Shown: positions 20,101 through 26,367 of the stretch, piece by piece
Layout of the letters: each line of letters starts with the position of its first letter
How positions within the stretch are numbered: the first letter of the stretch is position 1
DNA from: an uncultured Thermodesulfobacteriota bacterium
Lineage (GTDB): Bacteria; Desulfobacterota; CAZCTP01
Direction: 5' to 3'
DNA: 64,000 bases
Assembly (NCBI GenBank): GCA_964501575.1
Contig: CAZCTP010000005.1
Span: forward strand, 2,446 to 66,445
The notes under the pieces: generated by a model
What the model was told of the DNA's origin: nothing
What the model saw: the letters and a program-made list of their open reading frames with translations, nothing else
Databases searched by the model: none
Translations under genes and position numbers: made by a program

Positions 20101-20734
20101 TGGTGATGGTTGGGGATATGATATTGGCTATGGAGGCGTAGACCATGTTCTTGCATCAGGTGAGAATGTAAATCTTCTGATTCTTGATACGGAGGTCTAT
20201 TCAAACACAGGCGGACAGATGTCAAAGTCAACTCCATTAGCAGCTGTAGCTCAGTTTGCTGCAGGGGGTAAGAGAACTCCTAAAAAGAATATAGGACTTA
20301 TTATGACTACATATGGTAATGTTTATGTTGCCCAGGTAGCTTTTGGTGCCAATCCTGCCCAGACAATAAAGGCCTTCTTAGAGGCTGACGCATACAATGG
20401 ACCTTCATTGATTATTGCCTACTCTAATTGTATATCCCATGGTATAGATATGAGCAAAGGGATTGAGGAACAGAGGAAGGCTGTTAGCTGTGGACATTGG
20501 CCTCTCTACCGCTATAATCCAGAACTTGAGCGCCAGGGTAAAAGTCCTCTTATTATTGATAGTAAGGAACCTACTATCTCTTTTGAAGAATATGCATATA
20601 ATGAAAATCGTTATAGAGCACTTAGGTCTCTTAATCCTGAATTAGCAGCAGAACTTATTAAACAGGCAAATGCCGAAGTAAGAAGAAGATGGCAATATCT
20701 TAAACATTTATCAAAATGGATTCCAGAAGTATAG
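17150..20734 (+). CDS. por: Pyruvate:ferredoxin (flavodoxin) oxidoreductase, single-polypeptide type
   Basis: 1194 aa with two ferredoxin-type clusters (CIQCGQCAFVCP, CTGCGSCSYMCP) and a TPP-binding region (GGDGWGYDIGYGG). Nearly all of the 1194 residues align to the PFOR/NifJ family. Confidence 0.9.
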   Translation: MKRRMITVDGCTACAHVVHATNEIITIYPITPSSPIAEICDSKSAAGEVNIWGTVPKVNEMQSEAGAAGAVHGSLTTGALCTTITASQGLLLMIPNMYKIAGELTSTVFHITSRSLACQALSIFGDHSDVMAARSTGFAMLCSKDVQEAMDFALISQASTLESRIPFMHFFDGFRTSHEIQKIEELTFDDMRAIIDDEFVIAHRMRGLTSDHPNIRGTSQNPDVYFQGRETVNKYYDATPQVVQKVMDKFADLVGRQYRIFDYFGDPEAERVIVIMGSAGDTVLSTIESLNARGEKLGMIQVRLYRPFDTNGFAEVLPSTVKAIAVLDRTKEPGAIGEPLYLDVRSAVGEAIERGIAEFKTYPKIVGGRYGLGSKDFTPAMVKAVFDNLSKDQPKNHFTIGIEDDVTHTSIEYDKSFSLDERGVYRAMFYGLGSDGTVGANKNTIKIIGTETDNYAQGYFVYDSKKSGAITISHLRFGKEKIRNPYLLSKANFIACHNPSFLEKYDMLSNAEEGAIFLLTTSYKKDKVWDTLPIEVQEQLINKKMKFYIIDAISLAEEIGLGARINIIMQTAFFIISGILPKEEAIKSIKTEIEKTYIKKGNEVVEMNYAAVDRALQNIEEVPVPNKVTSKIRMKPPIPEDSPDFVKNVTAKIIAGKGDSLPVSAIPDDGTWPTGTTQYEKRNIGVYIPVWEPEICIQCGQCAFVCPHAAIRIKAYEPALLKNAPSDFKSVDAIGKDLKGLKFTVQVAPEDCTGCGSCSYMCPARKKDAEGNKIADFKAINMKLQEPLRHKEAKNYKFFLNLPETDPSRYKISTIKGSQLARPLFEYSGACAGCGETPYIKLLTQLFGDRLIIGNATGCSSIYGGNLPTTPYAKRADGRGPAWSNSLFEDAAEFGYGMRQTLDKFYLQAIELIDKFASDPSYSHVKELFNSIKNADQSNQEGIERQRARVEELKRILSKDNSTVVKWFLSLADYLVKKSVWAIGGDGWGYDIGYGGVDHVLASGENVNLLILDTEVYSNTGGQMSKSTPLAAVAQFAAGGKRTPKKNIGLIMTTYGNVYVAQVAFGANPAQTIKAFLEADAYNGPSLIIAYSNCISHGIDMSKGIEEQRKAVSCGHWPLYRYNPELERQGKSPLIIDSKEPTISFEEYAYNENRYRALRSLNPELAAELIKQANAEVRRRWQYLKHLSKWIPEV

Positions 20735-20793
20735 AATAGAGAATGAAATTAAAATTTTTATAACTTAAAACTAATAAAAATTAGAGGGATAAT

Positions 20794-21422
20794 ATGGAAA
20801 TTATTCAAGCAATTAAAGAAAGACGTTCAATTAATTTTTTGATCCGAGTAAAAAAATTTCAAATAGTGAGTTAAAAGAATTGATAGACCTTGCTAACCTC
20901 TCACCATCTTCCTTCAATTTACAGCCATGGAAGGTTATAGTAGTAAGAAACCCTGAAAAGAAGAGAGTTTTAAGAGAGTGCGCTTTTCATCAACCTAAGA
21001 TTGAAGAAGCCCCTGTAGTATTAATTATAATTGCTGATCTAAAAGCTGTTGAGGAAAATATGGAAAAAGCGCTTAATAGTTGGCAAGAGCTCGGATATAT
21101 AAAATCTGATGAAAGAGATACCTATATCGGTATGATAAATAATCTTTATGGAGAGACGGAAAGTCTTAAAAGGAAGTTATTTGCAGTAAAGAATGCTTCT
21201 TTATTTGCCATGAACCTCATGATTGCAGCAAAGGTATTAGATTTTGATACACATCCAATGGACGGATTTGAGGAAGATAAGATAAAAAAAGAATTTAATA
21301 TACCCGAGGATGAAATAATCCCGATGCTTATAGCTGTTGGTAATCTAAAGCCAGAAATAATACTTCTTAAAAGAGCATTTAGGAGAAGCTTTGAAGAATT
21401 TGTAATATTTGAAAATGTATAG
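20794..21422 (+). pseudogene. Nitroreductase-family gene interrupted by a 1-nt frameshift in a T6 homopolymer (20835-20840); possibly a sequencing error
   Basis: The ATG at 20794 (SD AGAGGGA) encodes MEIIQAIKERRSIN..., the canonical nitroreductase N-terminus, and then stops after 26 codons. The rest of the family (FDPSKKISNSELKELIDLANLSPSSFNLQPWK...) continues in the other frame. Confidence 0.6.
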
Positions 21423-21703
21423 CGAGGCCGGTCCTGTCCCAATGAGTAGGATTGACTAGCTAATATAAAAGTAGAGAATATCTTGTTTTCGAATATTCCC
21501 TGCGGCTTGTCGTAGAGAGCTTCAAATATACTAAAAAAGTTTCTGAGGACTTCCTCAAAAATTTTATAGCAGTATATAAACTATTATATAAGAAACTTCT
21601 TCCTTTAAATTTCTTTAAATTTTTTTATTTCCAAAAACTTTTGATATTACAGTAATTATCTTCAATATAAACGAATTCTTAGAAAACTATAGTATATTTT
21701 AAA

Positions 21704-21733
21704 TTGACATAATTATAATTTTAGATATATAAT
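21704..21733 (+). promoter_or_regulatory. Candidate sigma70-type promoter (TTGACA-N18-TATAAT) for the 21786-22553 two-gene unit
   Basis: The hexamers were read directly. Confidence 0.4.
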
Positions 21734-21735
21734 TA

Positions 21736-21753
21736 AATAATAATAATAATAAT
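21736..21753. repeat. (AAT)6 microsatellite in the 5' leader
   Basis: Six perfect AAT units were read directly. Confidence 0.8.
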
Positions 21754-21785
21754 ATAAAAATTATTATAAAGGAGGTGATAAAATA

Positions 21786-22277
21786 ATGAATAAGAATCTA
21801 CTAAAGGTAACCCGCTTAATACCATCCTCAGTGGTATTGATAAGTGTTGGAACTTCTGAAAAATCCGATGTTATGACAGCTACTGCTACGTTTGTTTCTG
21901 AAGATCTGCCTTTAATTACTGTAAGTGTTGCTAAACATCTTATCTCCAATGAAATTATAGAAAAATCTGGAGAATTTGTCCTCAATATTCCCTCTATTAA
22001 TCAGGTTGAACTTACAAGAGAGATAGGCGCTACTCATGGTAAAGAGGTGAATAAATTTAAAAGATTTAATATTGAGACTGAAAGGGCAAAGAGGATTAAT
22101 TCTCCTTTAGTAAAAGGATGCTTTGCTAATATTGAATGTAAGGTTATCACATCTATCCCGGTTAGCAACTATACTCTTTATCTGGCTGAGGCTATAGAAT
22201 ATAGAATCGATGACAAACTGTTTCCTATTGTGTGGCATAAGGATAAATACTTTGCTTTAAAAGAAGAAATAAATTAA
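21786..22277 (+). CDS. Flavin reductase-like domain protein
   Basis: 163 aa with similarity to the PF01613-type flavin reductase fold; paralog of 3922-4377. SD AAGGAGGTGA. Confidence 0.6.
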   Translation: MNKNLLKVTRLIPSSVVLISVGTSEKSDVMTATATFVSEDLPLITVSVAKHLISNEIIEKSGEFVLNIPSINQVELTREIGATHGKEVNKFKRFNIETERAKRINSPLVKGCFANIECKVITSIPVSNYTLYLAEAIEYRIDDKLFPIVWHKDKYFALKEEIN

Positions 22278-22295
22278 GGAAACAAGGAGGTAAAA

Positions 22296-22553
22296 ATGTC
22301 TGATAAATTAAAAGAAGCTTATGTATGCAAAACATGTGGTAAGATAGGAAAGATTGAACATTTATGTAATCCTGCTACTGAATTCAAACTTTTAAATGTT
22401 GAACCTTCTAATTGCCAATTCTGTGGAGAAAATATTAAAACTCCTTATCATATGTGTAAAGGTAAACTTCAGGAGGCAGAATATGTCTGTGGACAATGTG
22501 GAAGGATAGCACTCAATGAAGAGTGCCTCTGTGTACCAGAAAAAATAAATTAA
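22296..22553 (+). CDS. Small cysteine-rich protein (10 Cys, three CxxC), predicted metal-binding, internally duplicated
   Basis: Two copies of EAYVCxxCGxI(x6)LC.P (residues 7-26 and 60-81). SD AAGGAGGT. A rho-independent terminator follows. Confidence 0.6.
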   Translation: MSDKLKEAYVCKTCGKIGKIEHLCNPATEFKLLNVEPSNCQFCGENIKTPYHMCKGKLQEAEYVCGQCGRIALNEECLCVPEKIN

Positions 22554-22559
22554 AATCAA

Positions 22560-22586
22560 GGGAGAGGCTTCTCTCCCTTTTTGTTT
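22560..22586 (+). terminator. Rho-independent terminator
   Basis: GGGAGAG-gctt-CTCTCCC hairpin followed by TTTTTGTTT. Confidence 0.75.
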
Positions 22587-22798
22587 ATATTTACCTAATT
22601 ATTGTTTACTATTACTTACAAATAATTTTGTGTAGAAATTATTAACACTGTCATTATAAATAAAGATTTTATAATCCTGCAAATAGCTATCAATAGGTTT
22701 AAAAGAAATTGACAATTATTTATATTTTTGTTAAATATAAAATAAAATAGCTTCTTAATTTATTTTATATAAATATAATAAATATAGGGGGTGTGAAT

Positions 22799-24316
22799 AT
22801 GCAGGTAAATGTGGCTCAAATTAAAGAATTAATAACTGCCTATATACCCAATTTAATTGGAGCTATAGCTATTTTAATTTTGGGATGGTTAATTTCTTTA
22901 CTTGTTACTGCTATTGTCCGTGCGGGACTCAGGCATACAACCCTGGATAATAGACTGGCACGTTGGATTATGGGGGAAGAGGCTGCTAAGAAGATAGAGG
23001 TTGAAGAAGGAATTGCTAAAGGAATATTTTATTTACTTATGCTCTTTGTACTGGTTGCATTCTTCCAGGCTCTTGGACTTACCCTTATCACTGAACCTAT
23101 AAATAGATTTTTAACCAAACTCTTTCAATTTATCCCTCAATTATTAGGAGCTCTGATATTATTAATTATAGCGTGGTTCGTAGCAGGAACTCTAAGACTT
23201 ATCATTTCAAAGCTATTAAGCACAAGTAAGTTTGATGAGATTGTAGGAGAAAAGGTTGGAAGGGAAGAGAAGAAGCCTATCCCGTTGACAAAAACAATTG
23301 CTGATACTGTATACTGGCTGGTATTTCTGCTTTTCTTACCTGCGATATTAAGTACTTTGGCTCTGGAAGGTCTTCTTGAACCTATCAGAGAAATGGTCAA
23401 CAGAATCCTGACCTTTCTACCAAATATATTTGCAGCTGGTTTAATCCTTGGAGCAGGGTGGTTTGTTGCTCGTATTATTCAAAGAATTGTCACCAATCTA
23501 TTAACCGCTATTGGAACCGATAGATTGGGTGAGCAGGTAGGAATAGGGACAGTTTTGGGTACTGAAAGACTTTCTGGACTCCTTGGCTTCATAGTCTATA
23601 TTCTAATCCTTATTCCAGTACTTATTGCTTCTCTGAATGCATTAAAGCTTGAAGCGGTGACCAAACCAGCAAGCAATATGCTTAATATGATTCTTCAAGC
23701 CATTCCATCTATATTTGCTGCTGCTCTATTATTGACTATATCCTATATAATAGGACGTCTGGTGGCAAATTTAATCGCTACCCTACTTGCAAATGCTGGT
23801 TTTAATAAGATTATGGTCTGGCTGGGAATAGGAGAGGAGAGTTCAGAGGGAACAAAAACCCCTTCAAATATATTAGGCTATCTGGTTCTGGTTATAATTA
23901 TGCTTCTCGCTATAATTGAAGTTTTTCAGATTCTGGGATTTGGTGCTGCAGCTGATTTAATTAGTCAATTTATAATATTTATAAGTCATGTCATTTTAGG
24001 ATTGATTATATTCGGTATTGGATTATACTTAGCTAATCTTGCCTCCAAGACTATTCAGGCGAGCAGTACAACCCAGGCTAATCTGTTAGCCCTTGCAGCA
24101 CGTATCACCATTCTGATTTTTGCAGGAGCAATGGGTTTAAGACAGATGGGACTGGCAAATGAGATTATTAACTTAGCCTTTGGTTTACTGCTTGGAGCAA
24201 TAGCAATCGCAATAGCGATCGCTTTTGGATTAGGAGGTCAGAAGATAGCTGCTCAAGAATTGGATGAGTGGATTAAATCATTAAGATCAAAATCCAAGAA
24301 ATCACAAAGAAATTAA
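22799..24316 (+). CDS. Polytopic membrane protein built from tandem conserved-TM-helix (MscS N-terminal-type) repeats; no MscS channel domain
   Basis: Four to five repeats of about 95 aa, each with IP.L.GALILLIIAWFVAG.L..II..LL......G..VG. The ATG at 22799 lies 7 nt after GGGGG (the tabulated GTG at 22793 is less likely). 505 aa. Confidence 0.65.
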   Translation: MQVNVAQIKELITAYIPNLIGAIAILILGWLISLLVTAIVRAGLRHTTLDNRLARWIMGEEAAKKIEVEEGIAKGIFYLLMLFVLVAFFQALGLTLITEPINRFLTKLFQFIPQLLGALILLIIAWFVAGTLRLIISKLLSTSKFDEIVGEKVGREEKKPIPLTKTIADTVYWLVFLLFLPAILSTLALEGLLEPIREMVNRILTFLPNIFAAGLILGAGWFVARIIQRIVTNLLTAIGTDRLGEQVGIGTVLGTERLSGLLGFIVYILILIPVLIASLNALKLEAVTKPASNMLNMILQAIPSIFAAALLLTISYIIGRLVANLIATLLANAGFNKIMVWLGIGEESSEGTKTPSNILGYLVLVIIMLLAIIEVFQILGFGAAADLISQFIIFISHVILGLIIFGIGLYLANLASKTIQASSTTQANLLALAARITILIFAGAMGLRQMGLANEIINLAFGLLLGAIAIAIAIAFGLGGQKIAAQELDEWIKSLRSKSKKSQRN

Positions 24317-25275: not shown

Positions 25276-26367
25276 TTGGCACGTAAAGGGAAAAGAGCGG
25301 TATTAGTAAAGCCAGATCAACCTATAGAAATATGGGAACTTCCGGTACCATTGCCCCAACCTGGAGGAGTATTGCTAAAGGTAGAAATGGGAGGAGTATG
25401 TGGTACCGATGTTCACCTGTGGCATGGTGATATGGAACTACCCTATCCTATTGTACTCGGGCATGAGGGAATAGGTATAATTGAAGAGTTTGGAGAAGGA
25501 TTAACCAAAGATTATGCTGGAACCCCCCTAAAAGTTGGGGACAGAGTTTATTGGGCCCCTATTAAACCTTGTTACCATTGTTATTACTGTACTGTAATAA
25601 AGGATTTTTCTCTATGTGAAGAGATGGTAATATTTGAACATGCAGAAAAACCTAACTGGGCAAGCTATAATGAGTATGCATGGCTTCCTGCAGGAATGCC
25701 ATTTTACAGAATCCCTGATGATACTCCCTCTGAATCTGTAATCGCCTTTGGATGTGCCATGCCTACTATGCTTCAGGGTCTGGAAAGATTAGGAGGAGTG
25801 GAACCCAATCAAACAGTTGTAATTCAGGGAGCTGGGCCAGTAGGACTTGCAGCTACCCTTCTTGCCAGACTTTCAGGAGCAAGGAAGATTATAAATATTG
25901 GGGCACCAAAACACAGGTTGGAGATGGCAATACGTTTTGGAGCAACTCATACAATCAATATAGACGAAATCCAAGGAGAAGAAAACAGGATTAAACGTTG
26001 TCATGAACTTACTGAAGGGATGGGAGCTGATGTGGTTATAGAGGCTGCAGGAGTGCTTGCCGCCTTTTCAGAAGGTCTTAAGATGCTTGCAAAAAATGGA
26101 AGATACCTTATAGTAGGATTATGGTCGGGTAAGGGAGCTATCCCTCTGGATCCAAGGTATATAAATAATAATAACCTTAAAGTTATAGGAACTGCCTTAG
26201 CCCAACCCCAGCATTATTACAGAGCAATTCAGTTGGCTCAGGCACATCATAAAGAATTTCCTATGGTTGAAATTGTTACCCATCGTTTCCCGATTGAAAA
26301 AAGTCAGGAGGCTCTTGAAGCGGTAGCTAAGCTCGAAACGGTTAAAGCAGTAATTATTCCTTCCTGA
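25276..26367 (+). CDS. Zinc-dependent alcohol dehydrogenase family (MDR)
   Basis: GHEGIG Zn motif, structural-Zn Cys cluster (CYHCYYC) and a GAGPVGL Rossmann fold. TTG start 8 nt after AAGGAGGT. Confidence 0.8.
   Translation: MARKGKRAVLVKPDQPIEIWELPVPLPQPGGVLLKVEMGGVCGTDVHLWHGDMELPYPIVLGHEGIGIIEEFGEGLTKDYAGTPLKVGDRVYWAPIKPCYHCYYCTVIKDFSLCEEMVIFEHAEKPNWASYNEYAWLPAGMPFYRIPDDTPSESVIAFGCAMPTMLQGLERLGGVEPNQTVVIQGAGPVGLAATLLARLSGARKIINIGAPKHRLEMAIRFGATHTINIDEIQGEENRIKRCHELTEGMGADVVIEAAGVLAAFSEGLKMLAKNGRYLIVGLWSGKGAIPLDPRYINNNNLKVIGTALAQPQHYYRAIQLAQAHHKEFPMVEIVTHRFPIEKSQEALEAVAKLETVKAVIIPS

What the first reader, a model, noticed from the sequence alone, without database searches (positions are those of the whole stretch)
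21786..22586. Flavin-reductase-like gene co-transcribed with a small internally duplicated Cys-rich protein
The 85-aa protein has 10 Cys arranged as two copies of EAYVCxxCGxI(x6)LC.P plus a central CQFCG. It follows the flavin-reductase-like gene by 18 bp, and the pair is flanked by a promoter-like element and a clean terminator. The arrangement resembles two-component flavin-reductase / rubredoxin-like electron-transfer pairs. However, the motif is not the canonical rubredoxin CxxCG...CPxCG, so this may be a distinct metal-binding redox partner.
Basis: seen in the sequence. Interest (0 to 1): 0.5.

Follow-up and report, generated by a model that had tools for sequence, protein, structure and literature searches.

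The report
Flavin reductase with triple-knuckle cysteine protein
A small gene next to a flavin reductase encodes a member of an undescribed family of three-repeat cysteine/histidine metal-binding proteins from anaerobic bacteria; its neighbours and fusions suggest, but do not prove, that it carries electrons the way rubredoxin does.

Summary
A 163-aa Pfam Flavin_Reduct gene (21786-22277) is followed after 18 nt by an 85-aa, 10-Cys ORF (22296-22553). Both have Shine-Dalgarno sites, and the pair lies between a perfect TTGACA-18-TATAAT promoter and a hairpin terminator.

The small protein is not two copies plus a fragment. It has three homologous units, C-x2-C-G-x7-[H/C]-x-C. It belongs to a real family: 163 clusters at 50% identity, more than 105 genome species, and 245 distinct cores. 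The family has 9 invariant Cys, 2 near-invariant His and rigid spacing. It matches no Pfam or NCBIfam model above cut-off, no PDB sequence convincingly, and no PDB fold. Hosts are mostly Desulfobacterota, anammox Planctomycetota and Nitrospirota.

Linkage to the flavin reductase is confined to the window's own narrow clade (3 of 3 visible cases). It is absent from 105 other family loci and from 2 flavin-reductase orthologue loci. Elsewhere the family sits beside class-A flavodiiron proteins and rubredoxin-less erythrins, and is fused to superoxide reductase and to dodecin. These protein types classically use, or occur fused to, rubredoxin domains.

Best reading (about 0.4): a rubredoxin-like redox partner, making the pair a split analogue of Moorella Hrb. 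Main rival: a structural zinc-finger array, since 22% of members carry basic tails. The metal is unknown. Interest is moderate.

The parts
21704..21733 (+). sigma-70-type promoter, TTGACA - 18 nt - TATAAT, 52 nt upstream of the first ATG
   Evidence: a 12 of 12 match and the best site in the 20700-22900 scan. The region is AT-rich (24% GC), so weaker matches there are common.
21737..21767 (.). imperfect inverted repeat (15-nt arms, 80% complementary) between the -10 hexamer and the ribosome-binding site; a possible operator
   Evidence: repeat I4. A PerR/Fur-type 7-1-7 box search found two 2-mismatch matches here, but the window-wide count was not significant (9 found against 4.6 expected). 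This part is speculative.
21786..22277 (+). flavin reductase-like FMN-binding protein, 163 aa (ribosome-binding site AGGAGGTGAT at 21770-21779)
   Evidence: PF01613, E 3.7e-25.: the closest solved relatives are PH0856 FMN-binding protein 2r6v (2e-14) and flavoredoxins 3bnk and 2d5m.: 73 close homologues, all single-domain and mostly about 145-180 aa.
22296..22553 (+). 85-aa three-repeat Cys10His2 protein (ribosome-binding site AAGGAGGT at 22284-22291)
   Evidence: a member of an uncharacterised family with 9 invariant Cys and 2 near-invariant His. Identical copies occur on 4 metagenome contigs.
22320..22373 (+). repeat unit 1 (residues 9-26, YVCKTCGKIGKIEHLCNP; ligand candidates C11, C14, H22, C24)
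22407..22463 (+). repeat unit 2 (residues 38-56, SNCQFCGENIKTPYHMCKG; ligand candidates C40, C43, H52, C54)
22482..22538 (+). repeat unit 3 (residues 63-81, YVCGQCGRIALNEECLCVP; ligand candidates C65, C68, C77, C79). C77 is specific to this clade and makes the only all-Cys site.
   Evidence: Cys occupies this position in 4 of 245 cores (P0001, P0002, P0005, L136), His in 45 of 245, and other residues in the rest.
22558..22586 (+). intrinsic terminator: 9-bp stem AAGGGAGAG / CTCTCCCTT, 4-nt loop, then a T-run
   Evidence: An equivalent hairpin follows the homologous gene in L005.

Best explanation
The region is a two-gene operon. The first product is a flavoredoxin-type FMN protein (Flavin_Reduct fold). 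The second is a small metalloprotein built from three tandem knuckle units, C-x2-C-G-x7-[H/C]-x-C, each offering four metal ligands.

Proposed mechanism, inferred and not shown: the flavoprotein takes reducing equivalents from NAD(P)H or reduced ferredoxin. A pyruvate:ferredoxin oxidoreductase gene lies about 1 kb upstream. The flavoprotein then passes single electrons to the metal centre(s) of the small protein. That protein shuttles them to an acceptor such as an O2- or ROS-scavenging di-iron enzyme.

On this reading the pair is a split functional analogue of the high-molecular-weight rubredoxin Hrb (FMN flavin-reductase domain fused to an Fe(Cys)4 rubredoxin domain). The family as a whole would fill the rubredoxin slot beside rubredoxin-less flavodiiron proteins, erythrins and superoxide reductase.

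Shown: the genes, the operon signals, the family, its conservation pattern, its contexts and its fusions. Inferred: metal binding, the identity of the metal (Fe rather than Zn), electron transfer, and the physiological acceptor.
For: - Operon anatomy: 18-nt gap, both ribosome-binding sites, one strong promoter and one terminator.
- The pairing recurs in the only other clade members whose upstream DNA is visible: L005 (67% identity) and L136 (50%).
- Domain fusions, verified with Pfam: Rubrerythrin-type rubredoxin domain + Desulfoferrodoxin + this domain (P0062), and Dodecin + this domain in three 50%-identity clusters (P0077, P0088, P0122).
- Neighbourhoods. Class-A flavodiiron proteins are adjacent in 8 of 105 genome loci, in two arrangements, and also in the P0154 loci L006-L008. 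163-aa erythrins that lack the usual rubredoxin domain lie next to or near members in 6 of 105 loci. P0070 sits inside a rubrerythrin / encapsulin / rubredoxin / FDP-like / DJ-1 cluster.
- A strict motif search found no canonical rubredoxin ORF in any of the 105 loci.
- Each of these partner types is known with a fused rubredoxin(-like) domain. Hrb is FMN + Fe(Cys)4 rubredoxin with a flavodiiron partner (PMC12288474). Flavin-reductase-like domains are electron-input modules of cyanobacterial FDPs (PMC4390876 abstract).
- Units 1 and 3 begin Y-x-C-x-x-C-G, the same as the first rubredoxin knuckle (sequence; the rubredoxin motif is from my own knowledge).
- Hosts are overwhelmingly anaerobic lineages.
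- The window clade has turned unit 3 into an all-Cys site, the ligand set of rubredoxin iron.
Against: - No direct evidence exists for any metal. Cys3His sites (units 1 and 2 in 99% of members) are classical structural zinc sites. No natural mononuclear Fe(Cys)3His electron carrier is known to me.
- The fourth ligand of unit 3 is not conserved: His in 18%, Cys in 2%.
- About 85% of family loci show no redox neighbour. The commonest same-strand neighbours also include LD-carboxypeptidase, radical SAM and YhdP proteins.
- The redox associations come from a handful of clades, so the independent events are few, roughly 6 to 8.
- 55 of 245 members carry Lys/Arg-rich tails, some of them long histone-H1-like AKPAA repeats. 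That is odd for a soluble electron carrier.
- Flavin-reductase orthologues at 54-59% identity do without the small gene.
- In L136 the small gene is intact beside a truncated flavin reductase.
- The AlphaFold models have low confidence (pLDDT 69 and 63).
Confidence: 0.4

Rival explanations
1. The protein is a structural zinc-finger array: three Cys3His / Cys4 zinc knuckles that mediate binding to nucleic acid or protein. It would act as a small regulator, adaptor or nucleoid-associated protein, perhaps tied to stress. Its position beside the flavin reductase would then be regulatory or incidental.
For: - Cys3His is a typical zinc ligand set.
- The only sequence similarities found are to tandem zinc fingers and small zinc-finger proteins, all below family thresholds: PRDM9 fingers E 2.9e-05, HVO_2753-like E 0.017, and DUF7573, C1_2 and DZR_2.
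- 22% of members have Lys/Arg-rich tails, including an HC2 histone-H1-like match in P0112 and AKPAA-repeat tails of more than 150 aa in L058 and L122.
- One member is fused to a response-regulator receiver domain, in the position where an output domain would sit (P0152).
- Most loci have heterogeneous neighbours, and many genes look monocistronic.
Against: - The spacing C-x2-C-x7-8-H-x-C fits no known DNA-binding finger. C2H2 fingers need about 12 residues before the first His, and Ros/MucR fingers need C-x2-C-x9-H-x3-H (own knowledge).
- No structural match was found to any finger or ribbon.
- Fusions to SOR and dodecin, and adjacency to FDP and erythrin, are not explained by this reading.
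- The window protein itself has no basic tail.
Confidence: 0.3
2. The protein is a metal buffer or metallochaperone. The 9 Cys and 2 His would form a polynuclear thiolate cluster, like the metallothionein M3Cys9 cluster or the SmtA Zn4Cys9His2 cluster. Alternatively they would hold Fe or Zn for delivery to di-iron or Fe-S enzymes.
For: - The invariant ligand count is exactly Cys9His2, the same as the SmtA cluster (own knowledge).
- NifU_N or NifU genes lie two genes away in the FDP-linked clade and beside P0005.
- The neighbours are metal-dependent enzymes.
Against: - The regular three-fold repeat with local four-ligand sets, and a repeated strand-knuckle-strand-turn pattern for units 1 and 3 in the models, point to separate mononuclear sites.
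- Cys makes up about 12% of residues, which is low for a metallothionein.
- There is no Pfam Metallothio_Pro hit.
- No metal-resistance or metal-transport genes appear in the neighbourhoods.
Confidence: 0.12
3. The protein is a redox-switch stress protein. Its zinc-thiolate centres would release zinc on oxidation, as in Hsp33 or the DnaJ Cys-rich domain, and so activate a holdase or signalling function during O2 exposure of an anaerobe.
For: - One member is fused to Hsp20 (P0012), and an Hsp20 gene lies downstream of clade member P0005.
- A weak NCBIfam hit covers the DnaJ zinc-finger region (E 0.11).
- The general oxidative-stress context.
Against: - There are only two Hsp20 associations.
- The protein has no substrate-binding domain of its own.
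- The DnaJ similarity is far below threshold.
Confidence: 0.08

Closest known systems
Hrb, the high-molecular-weight rubredoxin of Moorella thermoacetica (flavin-reductase-like FMN domain fused to a rubredoxin domain; donor to the flavodiiron protein FprA)
   Same: An FMN Flavin_Reduct-type module is coupled to a small Cys-knuckle metal module. The wider family also associates with flavodiiron proteins. The Hrb description comes from PMC12288474.
   Different: Here the two modules are separate polypeptides. The metal module is not a rubredoxin: it has three C-x2-C-x10-C units with His, no C-P-x-C-G second knuckle, and no PF00301 hit. No flavodiiron gene is called in the roughly 16 kb around the pair (L001).
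Rubredoxin (PF00301)
   Same: Both are small proteins with Y-x-C-x-x-C-G knuckles, found in anaerobes. They share the same set of partner enzyme classes (FDP, rubrerythrin, SOR, flavin reductase).
   Different: Rubredoxin has one Fe(Cys)4 site made from two knuckles about 30 residues apart. This family has three knuckles, each followed 8 residues later by H-x-C. The ligand sets are mostly Cys3His. No sequence or fold match was found.
Flavoredoxin / PH0856-type FMN-binding proteins (PDB 2r6v, 3bnk, 2d5m)
   Same: The 163-aa gene product matches these at E 2e-14 to 3e-06 and has the same single-domain size class.
   Different: I know of no dedicated Cys-rich partner gene described for them, and the close orthologues sampled here lack one.
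Small zinc-finger micro-proteins of haloarchaea (HVO_2753-like, PF07754; PDB 9fhl)
   Same: They are also proteins of under 100 aa made of several C(P)xCG knuckles, with functions that are poorly defined.
   Different: The match is only marginal (E 0.017 to the PDB chain; Pfam E 0.93). The ligand pattern, repeat number and taxonomic range all differ.
Bacterial metallothionein SmtA/BmtA (Zn4Cys9His2 cluster)
   Same: The count of conserved ligands is identical, 9 Cys and 2 His (SmtA facts from my own knowledge).
   Different: The Cys spacing is unrelated, there is no Pfam hit, and this family has a regular triple repeat that suggests separate sites.

Membership tests
Flavin_Reduct (PF01613), for the 163-aa gene | A match to the Pfam model above the gathering score, over the full domain | tested here: met
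   89.3 bits against a 27-bit cut-off, residues 10-158 on profile positions 2-152 of 153
Named flavin reductase equivalogs (HpaC, StyB, RutF, HsaB, FerA) | NCBIfam equivalog score above the curated cut-off | tested here: not met
   the best score is 34 bits against cut-offs of 200-340. The gene is a generic family member, not one of these enzymes.
Rubredoxin (PF00301), for the 85-aa gene | Pfam model match | tested here: not met
   not among the 13 families listed at E<=1
Rubredoxin (PF00301), for the 85-aa gene | Two knuckles, C-x2-C-G and C-P-x-C-G, about 30 residues apart, forming one Cys4 site | tested here: not met
   The sequence has three C-x2-C-G knuckles, none with Pro, each followed by [H/C]-x-C. 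The regex hit reflects knuckle spacing only.
Rubredoxin (PF00301), for the 85-aa gene | A bound Fe(Cys)4 centre with reversible one-electron redox chemistry | not testable with these tools
   This needs purified protein, metal analysis, UV-vis/EPR and electrochemistry.
Rubredoxin-like / zinc-ribbon fold | Structural similarity of a model to solved rubredoxins or zinc ribbons | tested here: inconclusive
Zinc-ribbon / double zinc ribbon families (DZR, DZR_2, Zn_ribbon_*), DUF1610/COG2888 label given by IMG | Pfam or NCBIfam score above the cut-off | tested here: not met
   all scores are 10-17 bits against cut-offs of 24-75. The IMG names are automatic labels.
C2H2 zinc fingers | C-x2-4-C-x12-H-x3-5-H spacing and the beta-beta-alpha fold | tested here: not met
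   The spacing here is C-x2-C-x7-8-H-x-C. The PRDM9 similarity rests on the 25-29-residue periodicity and the Y-x-C-x2-C-G motif.
Bacterial metallothionein (Metallothio_Pro PF02069) | Pfam match and the SmtA-like Cys/His pattern | tested here: not met
   no hit. Only the ligand count (Cys9His2) coincides.
The uncharacterised three-unit Cys9His2 family defined here | Three units C-x2-C-x10-C, His two residues before the third Cys in units 1 and 2, a 10-residue linker between units 2 and 3, and G after each C-x2-C | tested here: met
   the window protein has every invariant position. Unit 1 has the rarer spacer of 9 residues (13 of 245 cores) and unit 3 has the clade-specific extra Cys.
Hrb-like two-module reductase (function) | Electron transfer from FMN to the Cys-ligated metal centre and on to a di-iron acceptor | not testable with these tools
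   Only gene order and fusions are available.

The most novel reading that the evidence does not exclude
The family is a previously unrecognised class of iron or iron-sulfur electron carrier, with three compact Cys3His/Cys4 sites within about 75 residues. It would replace rubredoxin as the donor to flavodiiron proteins, erythrins and superoxide reductase in Desulfobacterota, anammox bacteria and Nitrospirota. In the window lineage it would be reduced by a dedicated flavoredoxin-type FMN protein.
Probability: 0.25. Interest if true: 0.75.

Novelty: new variant of a known kind. Interest (0 to 1): 0.5.

Why it matters
Oxygen and ROS defence in strict anaerobes, such as sulfate reducers, syntrophs and anammox bacteria, is usually drawn with rubredoxin as the electron hub. 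Yet many class-A flavodiiron proteins and erythrins have no identified donor encoded nearby.

This family is widespread and unannotated. It sits beside or is fused to exactly those enzymes, and in the window lineage it has its own flavoprotein reductase. If it carries electrons, it would be a missing link in these pathways and a new metal-site architecture.

If it instead proves to be a zinc-finger array, it would be one of the few tandem-finger families native to bacteria. Either outcome can be tested with one recombinant protein.

Tried and rejected
- Word-indexed homologue search with the single protein found only itself and one relative. The exhaustive phmmer search was needed to reveal the family.
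- The search for related loci with family alignments failed twice, because no stretch was conserved enough. I replaced it with a degenerate DNA pattern for unit 1. That pattern gave 120 genome loci, 105 of them true members.
- The N-terminal domain of fusion P0044 looked PNPOx-like by eye. Pfam gave only E 0.053 and the PDB search found nothing, so it is not used as evidence.
- The search for a PerR/Fur-type operator was not significant.
- The organism of the window could not be named. The window has 35% GC. Close flavin-reductase homologues are labelled Thermodesulfobacteriota or Deltaproteobacteria MAGs.
- Literature searches found no description of the family.
- Rejected: that the ORF is spurious (hundreds of conserved homologues), and that it is a rubredoxin or a known zinc ribbon (membership tests failed).

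Full report
**1. The observation**

- 21786-22277 (+) encodes 163 aa.
- 22296-22553 (+) encodes 85 aa with 10 Cys, after an 18-nt spacer.
- Each ORF has a strong Shine-Dalgarno site: AGGAGGTGAT at 21770-21779 and AAGGAGGT at 22284-22291.

The consensus scan found a perfect TTGACA-18-TATAAT at 21704-21733. It also found a 9-bp, 5-GC hairpin with a T-run at 22558-22579. The upstream nitroreductase gene (20880-21422) has its own terminator-like hairpin at about 21540-21561. The pair therefore looks like a self-contained bicistronic unit.

The first product is Pfam Flavin_Reduct (E 3.7e-25). It reaches no NCBIfam equivalog cut-off. Its closest solved relatives are the PH0856 FMN-binding protein and the flavoredoxins of Methanosarcina and Desulfovibrio.

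**2. Anatomy of the small protein**

Reading the sequence against its family shows three equivalent units, [Y]-x-C-x2-C-G-x(6-7)-[H/C]-x-C-x-[P/K]. The candidate ligand sets are C11/C14/H22/C24, C40/C43/H52/C54 and C65/C68/C77/C79.

Profiles of the three units built from 135 family members align to each other with hhalign probabilities of 97.5-98.2%. These values are inflated, because the units were extracted by their Cys pattern. Even so, the non-Cys positions also agree: Y at -2, G after the knuckle, H at -2 from the last Cys, and P at +2.

**3. It belongs to a real, undescribed family**

The word-indexed search found only the protein itself and one relative. The exhaustive phmmer search over 1.84 billion representatives found 163 clusters at E<=1e-3 and 13 at E<=1e-10. 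A few eukaryotic C2H2 arrays are among the weakest hits.

In a 97-sequence alignment, C11, C14, C24, C40, C43, H52, C54, C65, C68 and C79 are invariant. G15, H22, L23, P26, G44, G69, R70 and P81 are at least 90% conserved.

Across 245 distinct cores the geometry is rigid.
- The spacing is C-x2-C-x10-C in every unit.
- The linker between units 2 and 3 is exactly 10 residues.
- His lies two residues before the last Cys in unit 1 (242 of 245) and unit 2 (243 of 245).
- In unit 3 that position is His in only 45 of 245 and Cys in 4 of 245.
- Those four are the window protein, P0002, P0005 and L136. This is the window's own clade, which also has the rarer 9-residue spacer in unit 1.

No Pfam or NCBIfam model reaches its cut-off. 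None of the hits in the profile search carries a Pfam domain or a curated name. PDB sequence hits are limited to periodic zinc-finger arrays and one small archaeal zinc-finger protein, at weak scores.

**4. Distribution**

105 of them encode true members. Hosts are mainly these groups:
- Desulfobacterota (Desulfobacterales, Syntrophobacterales, Desulfobaccales, Desulfobulbus, Desulfoluna, Desulforhabdus);
- anammox Planctomycetota (Brocadia, Kuenenia, Scalindua);
- Nitrospirota;
- a few others.

These are essentially anaerobic lineages.

The window itself has 35% GC and is identical to four metagenome contigs. Its organism could not be named.

**5. Is the link to the flavin reductase general?**

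Within the window's clade, yes.
- L005 (67% identity) is preceded by the homologous flavin reductase.
- L136 (50% identity) is preceded by the C-terminal 79 residues of one. Nothing homologous lies further upstream, so this is either a remnant or an assembly join.
- The P0005 contig starts only 67 nt upstream of the gene, so it is uninformative. Hsp20 and NifU genes follow it downstream.

Outside the clade, no.
- phmmer with the window flavin reductase found no homologue among all ORFs of the 105 genome loci.
- Two flavin-reductase orthologue loci, at 59% and 54% identity, contain no family gene.
- All 73 close flavin-reductase homologues are single-domain.

The pairing is therefore a lineage-specific operon, not a family-wide rule.

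**6. What the family keeps company with**

Neighbourhoods are heterogeneous, and many genes look monocistronic. Only 95 of 210 flanking slots hold a same-strand gene within 300 nt. Among those 95, Pfam counts LD-carboxypeptidase 8 (one clade), flavodiiron protein 7, radical SAM 7 and YhdP 6. The functionally coherent signal is the following.

- **Flavodiiron proteins.** Class-A FDPs (Lactamase_B/ODP + Flavodoxin, 391-416 aa, no rubredoxin domain) lie directly or nearly adjacent in 8 of 105 loci. There are two arrangements: downstream in L086, L095, L103, L106 and L128, and upstream in L024, L105 and L107. The metagenomic P0154 loci (L006-L008) show the same downstream arrangement, and there a nitroreductase gene lies two genes upstream.
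- **Erythrins.** 163-aa Rubrerythrin-domain proteins that lack the usual C-terminal rubredoxin-like domain lie next to or near members in 6 of 105 loci.
- **An oxidative-stress cluster.** P0070 is embedded in a cluster of DJ-1, rubrerythrin, encapsulin, rubrerythrin, Zn-ADH, [member], thioredoxin-like, rubrerythrin, rubredoxin and an FDP-like protein.
- **Fusions.** These are RUBY_RBDX + Desulfoferrodoxin (superoxide reductase) + this domain (P0062); Dodecin (a flavin-binding protein) + this domain in three clusters; and single cases of Hsp20, a receiver domain and a CN-hydrolase.
- **No rubredoxin nearby.** A strict motif search found no canonical rubredoxin ORF in any of the 105 loci.

FDP, rubrerythrin, SOR and Flavin_Reduct proteins are all known in versions with a fused rubredoxin(-like) domain. 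Hrb is described as FMN plus an Fe(Cys)4 rubredoxin domain with an FDP partner in PMC12288474. Flavin-reductase-like domains are electron-input modules of cyanobacterial FDPs (PMC4390876). The remaining examples are from my own knowledge. The family repeatedly appears beside the rubredoxin-less versions.

A rough expectation for a random gene to have an FDP as an immediate neighbour is about 0.1%. This is my estimate, from a few FDP genes per roughly 4000-gene genome. The observed 7-8% is a large excess, but it reflects only a few independent evolutionary events.

**7. Interpretation**

I commit, at about 0.4, to the redox-partner model. The small protein would be a metal-centre electron carrier that is functionally analogous to rubredoxin. 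The window operon would be a split analogue of Hrb.

The window clade's conversion of unit 3 to an all-Cys site fits an iron site. The position about 1 kb downstream of a PFOR gene and next to a nitroreductase gene fits a low-potential electron-handling neighbourhood, although those genes are separate transcription units.

The main rival, at about 0.3, is a structural zinc-finger array.
- Cys3His is a classic zinc set.
- 22% of members carry Lys/Arg-rich tails, some of them long histone-H1-like repeats.
- One member replaces the output domain of a response regulator.
- Most neighbourhoods are not redox-related.

Metallothionein-like or metallochaperone roles (Cys9His2 equals the SmtA ligand count; NifU genes nearby) and an Hsp33/DnaJ-like redox-switch role (the Hsp20 fusion and neighbour) are less likely, but they are not excluded.

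**8. Novelty and score**

The flavin reductase is ordinary. The small protein is a member of a widespread family with no Pfam or NCBIfam model, no solved structure, no curated name, and no description found in four literature searches. Its kind, a small CxxC-knuckle metalloprotein, is known. Its triple C-x2-C-x10-C architecture with His, and its pattern of partners, are new. I rate it a new variant of a known kind, with interest 0.5.

The anatomy and the judgement that this is not a canonical rubredoxin are right. The redox-partner idea is plausible and now has contextual support. However, the linkage to flavin reductase is confined to one clade, and the metal chemistry is untested.

Noticed in passing
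L136:245-484 (upstream of the family gene at 485-745): Only the C-terminal 79 residues of the flavin reductase are present ahead of an intact Cys-rich gene. The 244 nt further upstream are AT-rich and have no homologous reading frame. This is either a decayed partner gene or a chimeric assembly.
   Followed up: partly
L058:1021-1746, L122:411-1151, and about 22% of family members (for example L030, L083, L121): Many family members carry Lys/Ala/Pro-rich tails at the N or C terminus. Two Nitrospirota proteins have tails of more than 150 aa made of AKPAA-type repeats, and P0112 matches Pfam HC2, a histone H1-like protein. This suggests binding to nucleic acid or another polyanion.
   Followed up: partly
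proteins P0006-P0009, P0011, P0014, P0021, P0047: Tandem-duplicated versions of about 170 aa carry six units (17-19 Cys; P0047, at 152 aa and 15 Cys, lacks one unit). Their organisms and genomic contexts were not examined.
   Followed up: no
L134:847-1546: Hsp20 and NifU genes lie downstream of the closest clade member, P0005. This echoes the Hsp20 fusion in P0012 and the NifU_N gene two genes from the FDP-linked members.
   Followed up: partly
window 21737-21767: An imperfect 15-nt inverted repeat (ATAATAATAATAATA / TATAAAAATTATTAT) lies between the -10 hexamer and the ribosome-binding site of the operon. It could be an operator or only AT-rich low complexity. The PerR/Fur box search was not significant.
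   Followed up: partly
window 23405-23433 (inside the mechanosensitive-channel gene 22793-24316): The otherwise identical metagenome contig L003 lacks these 29 nt. That would shift the frame of the channel gene, so it is either a strain variant or an assembly error.
   Followed up: no
window 20880-21422: The nitroreductase ORF starts at TTG and aligns to the Pfam model only from profile position 24, so its N terminus is short or the start is miscalled. Nitroreductase genes also occur near family members in L006-L008, L022 and L112.
   Followed up: no
window 25276-26367, and L009/L010/L011 and the P0070 contig: A Zn-dependent alcohol dehydrogenase-type gene directly precedes family members P0111 and P0070. 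A gene of the same type lies about 2.7 kb downstream of the window's small gene. This may be coincidence.
   Followed up: no
L006:5238-5879 and L086, L095, L103, L106, L128 (position -1): A conserved protein of about 215 aa with no Pfam match always precedes the family gene in the FDP-linked clade. It has an apparent lipoprotein-like N terminus and only a weak PsbP_2 hit (E 0.05). Its function is unknown.
   Followed up: partly
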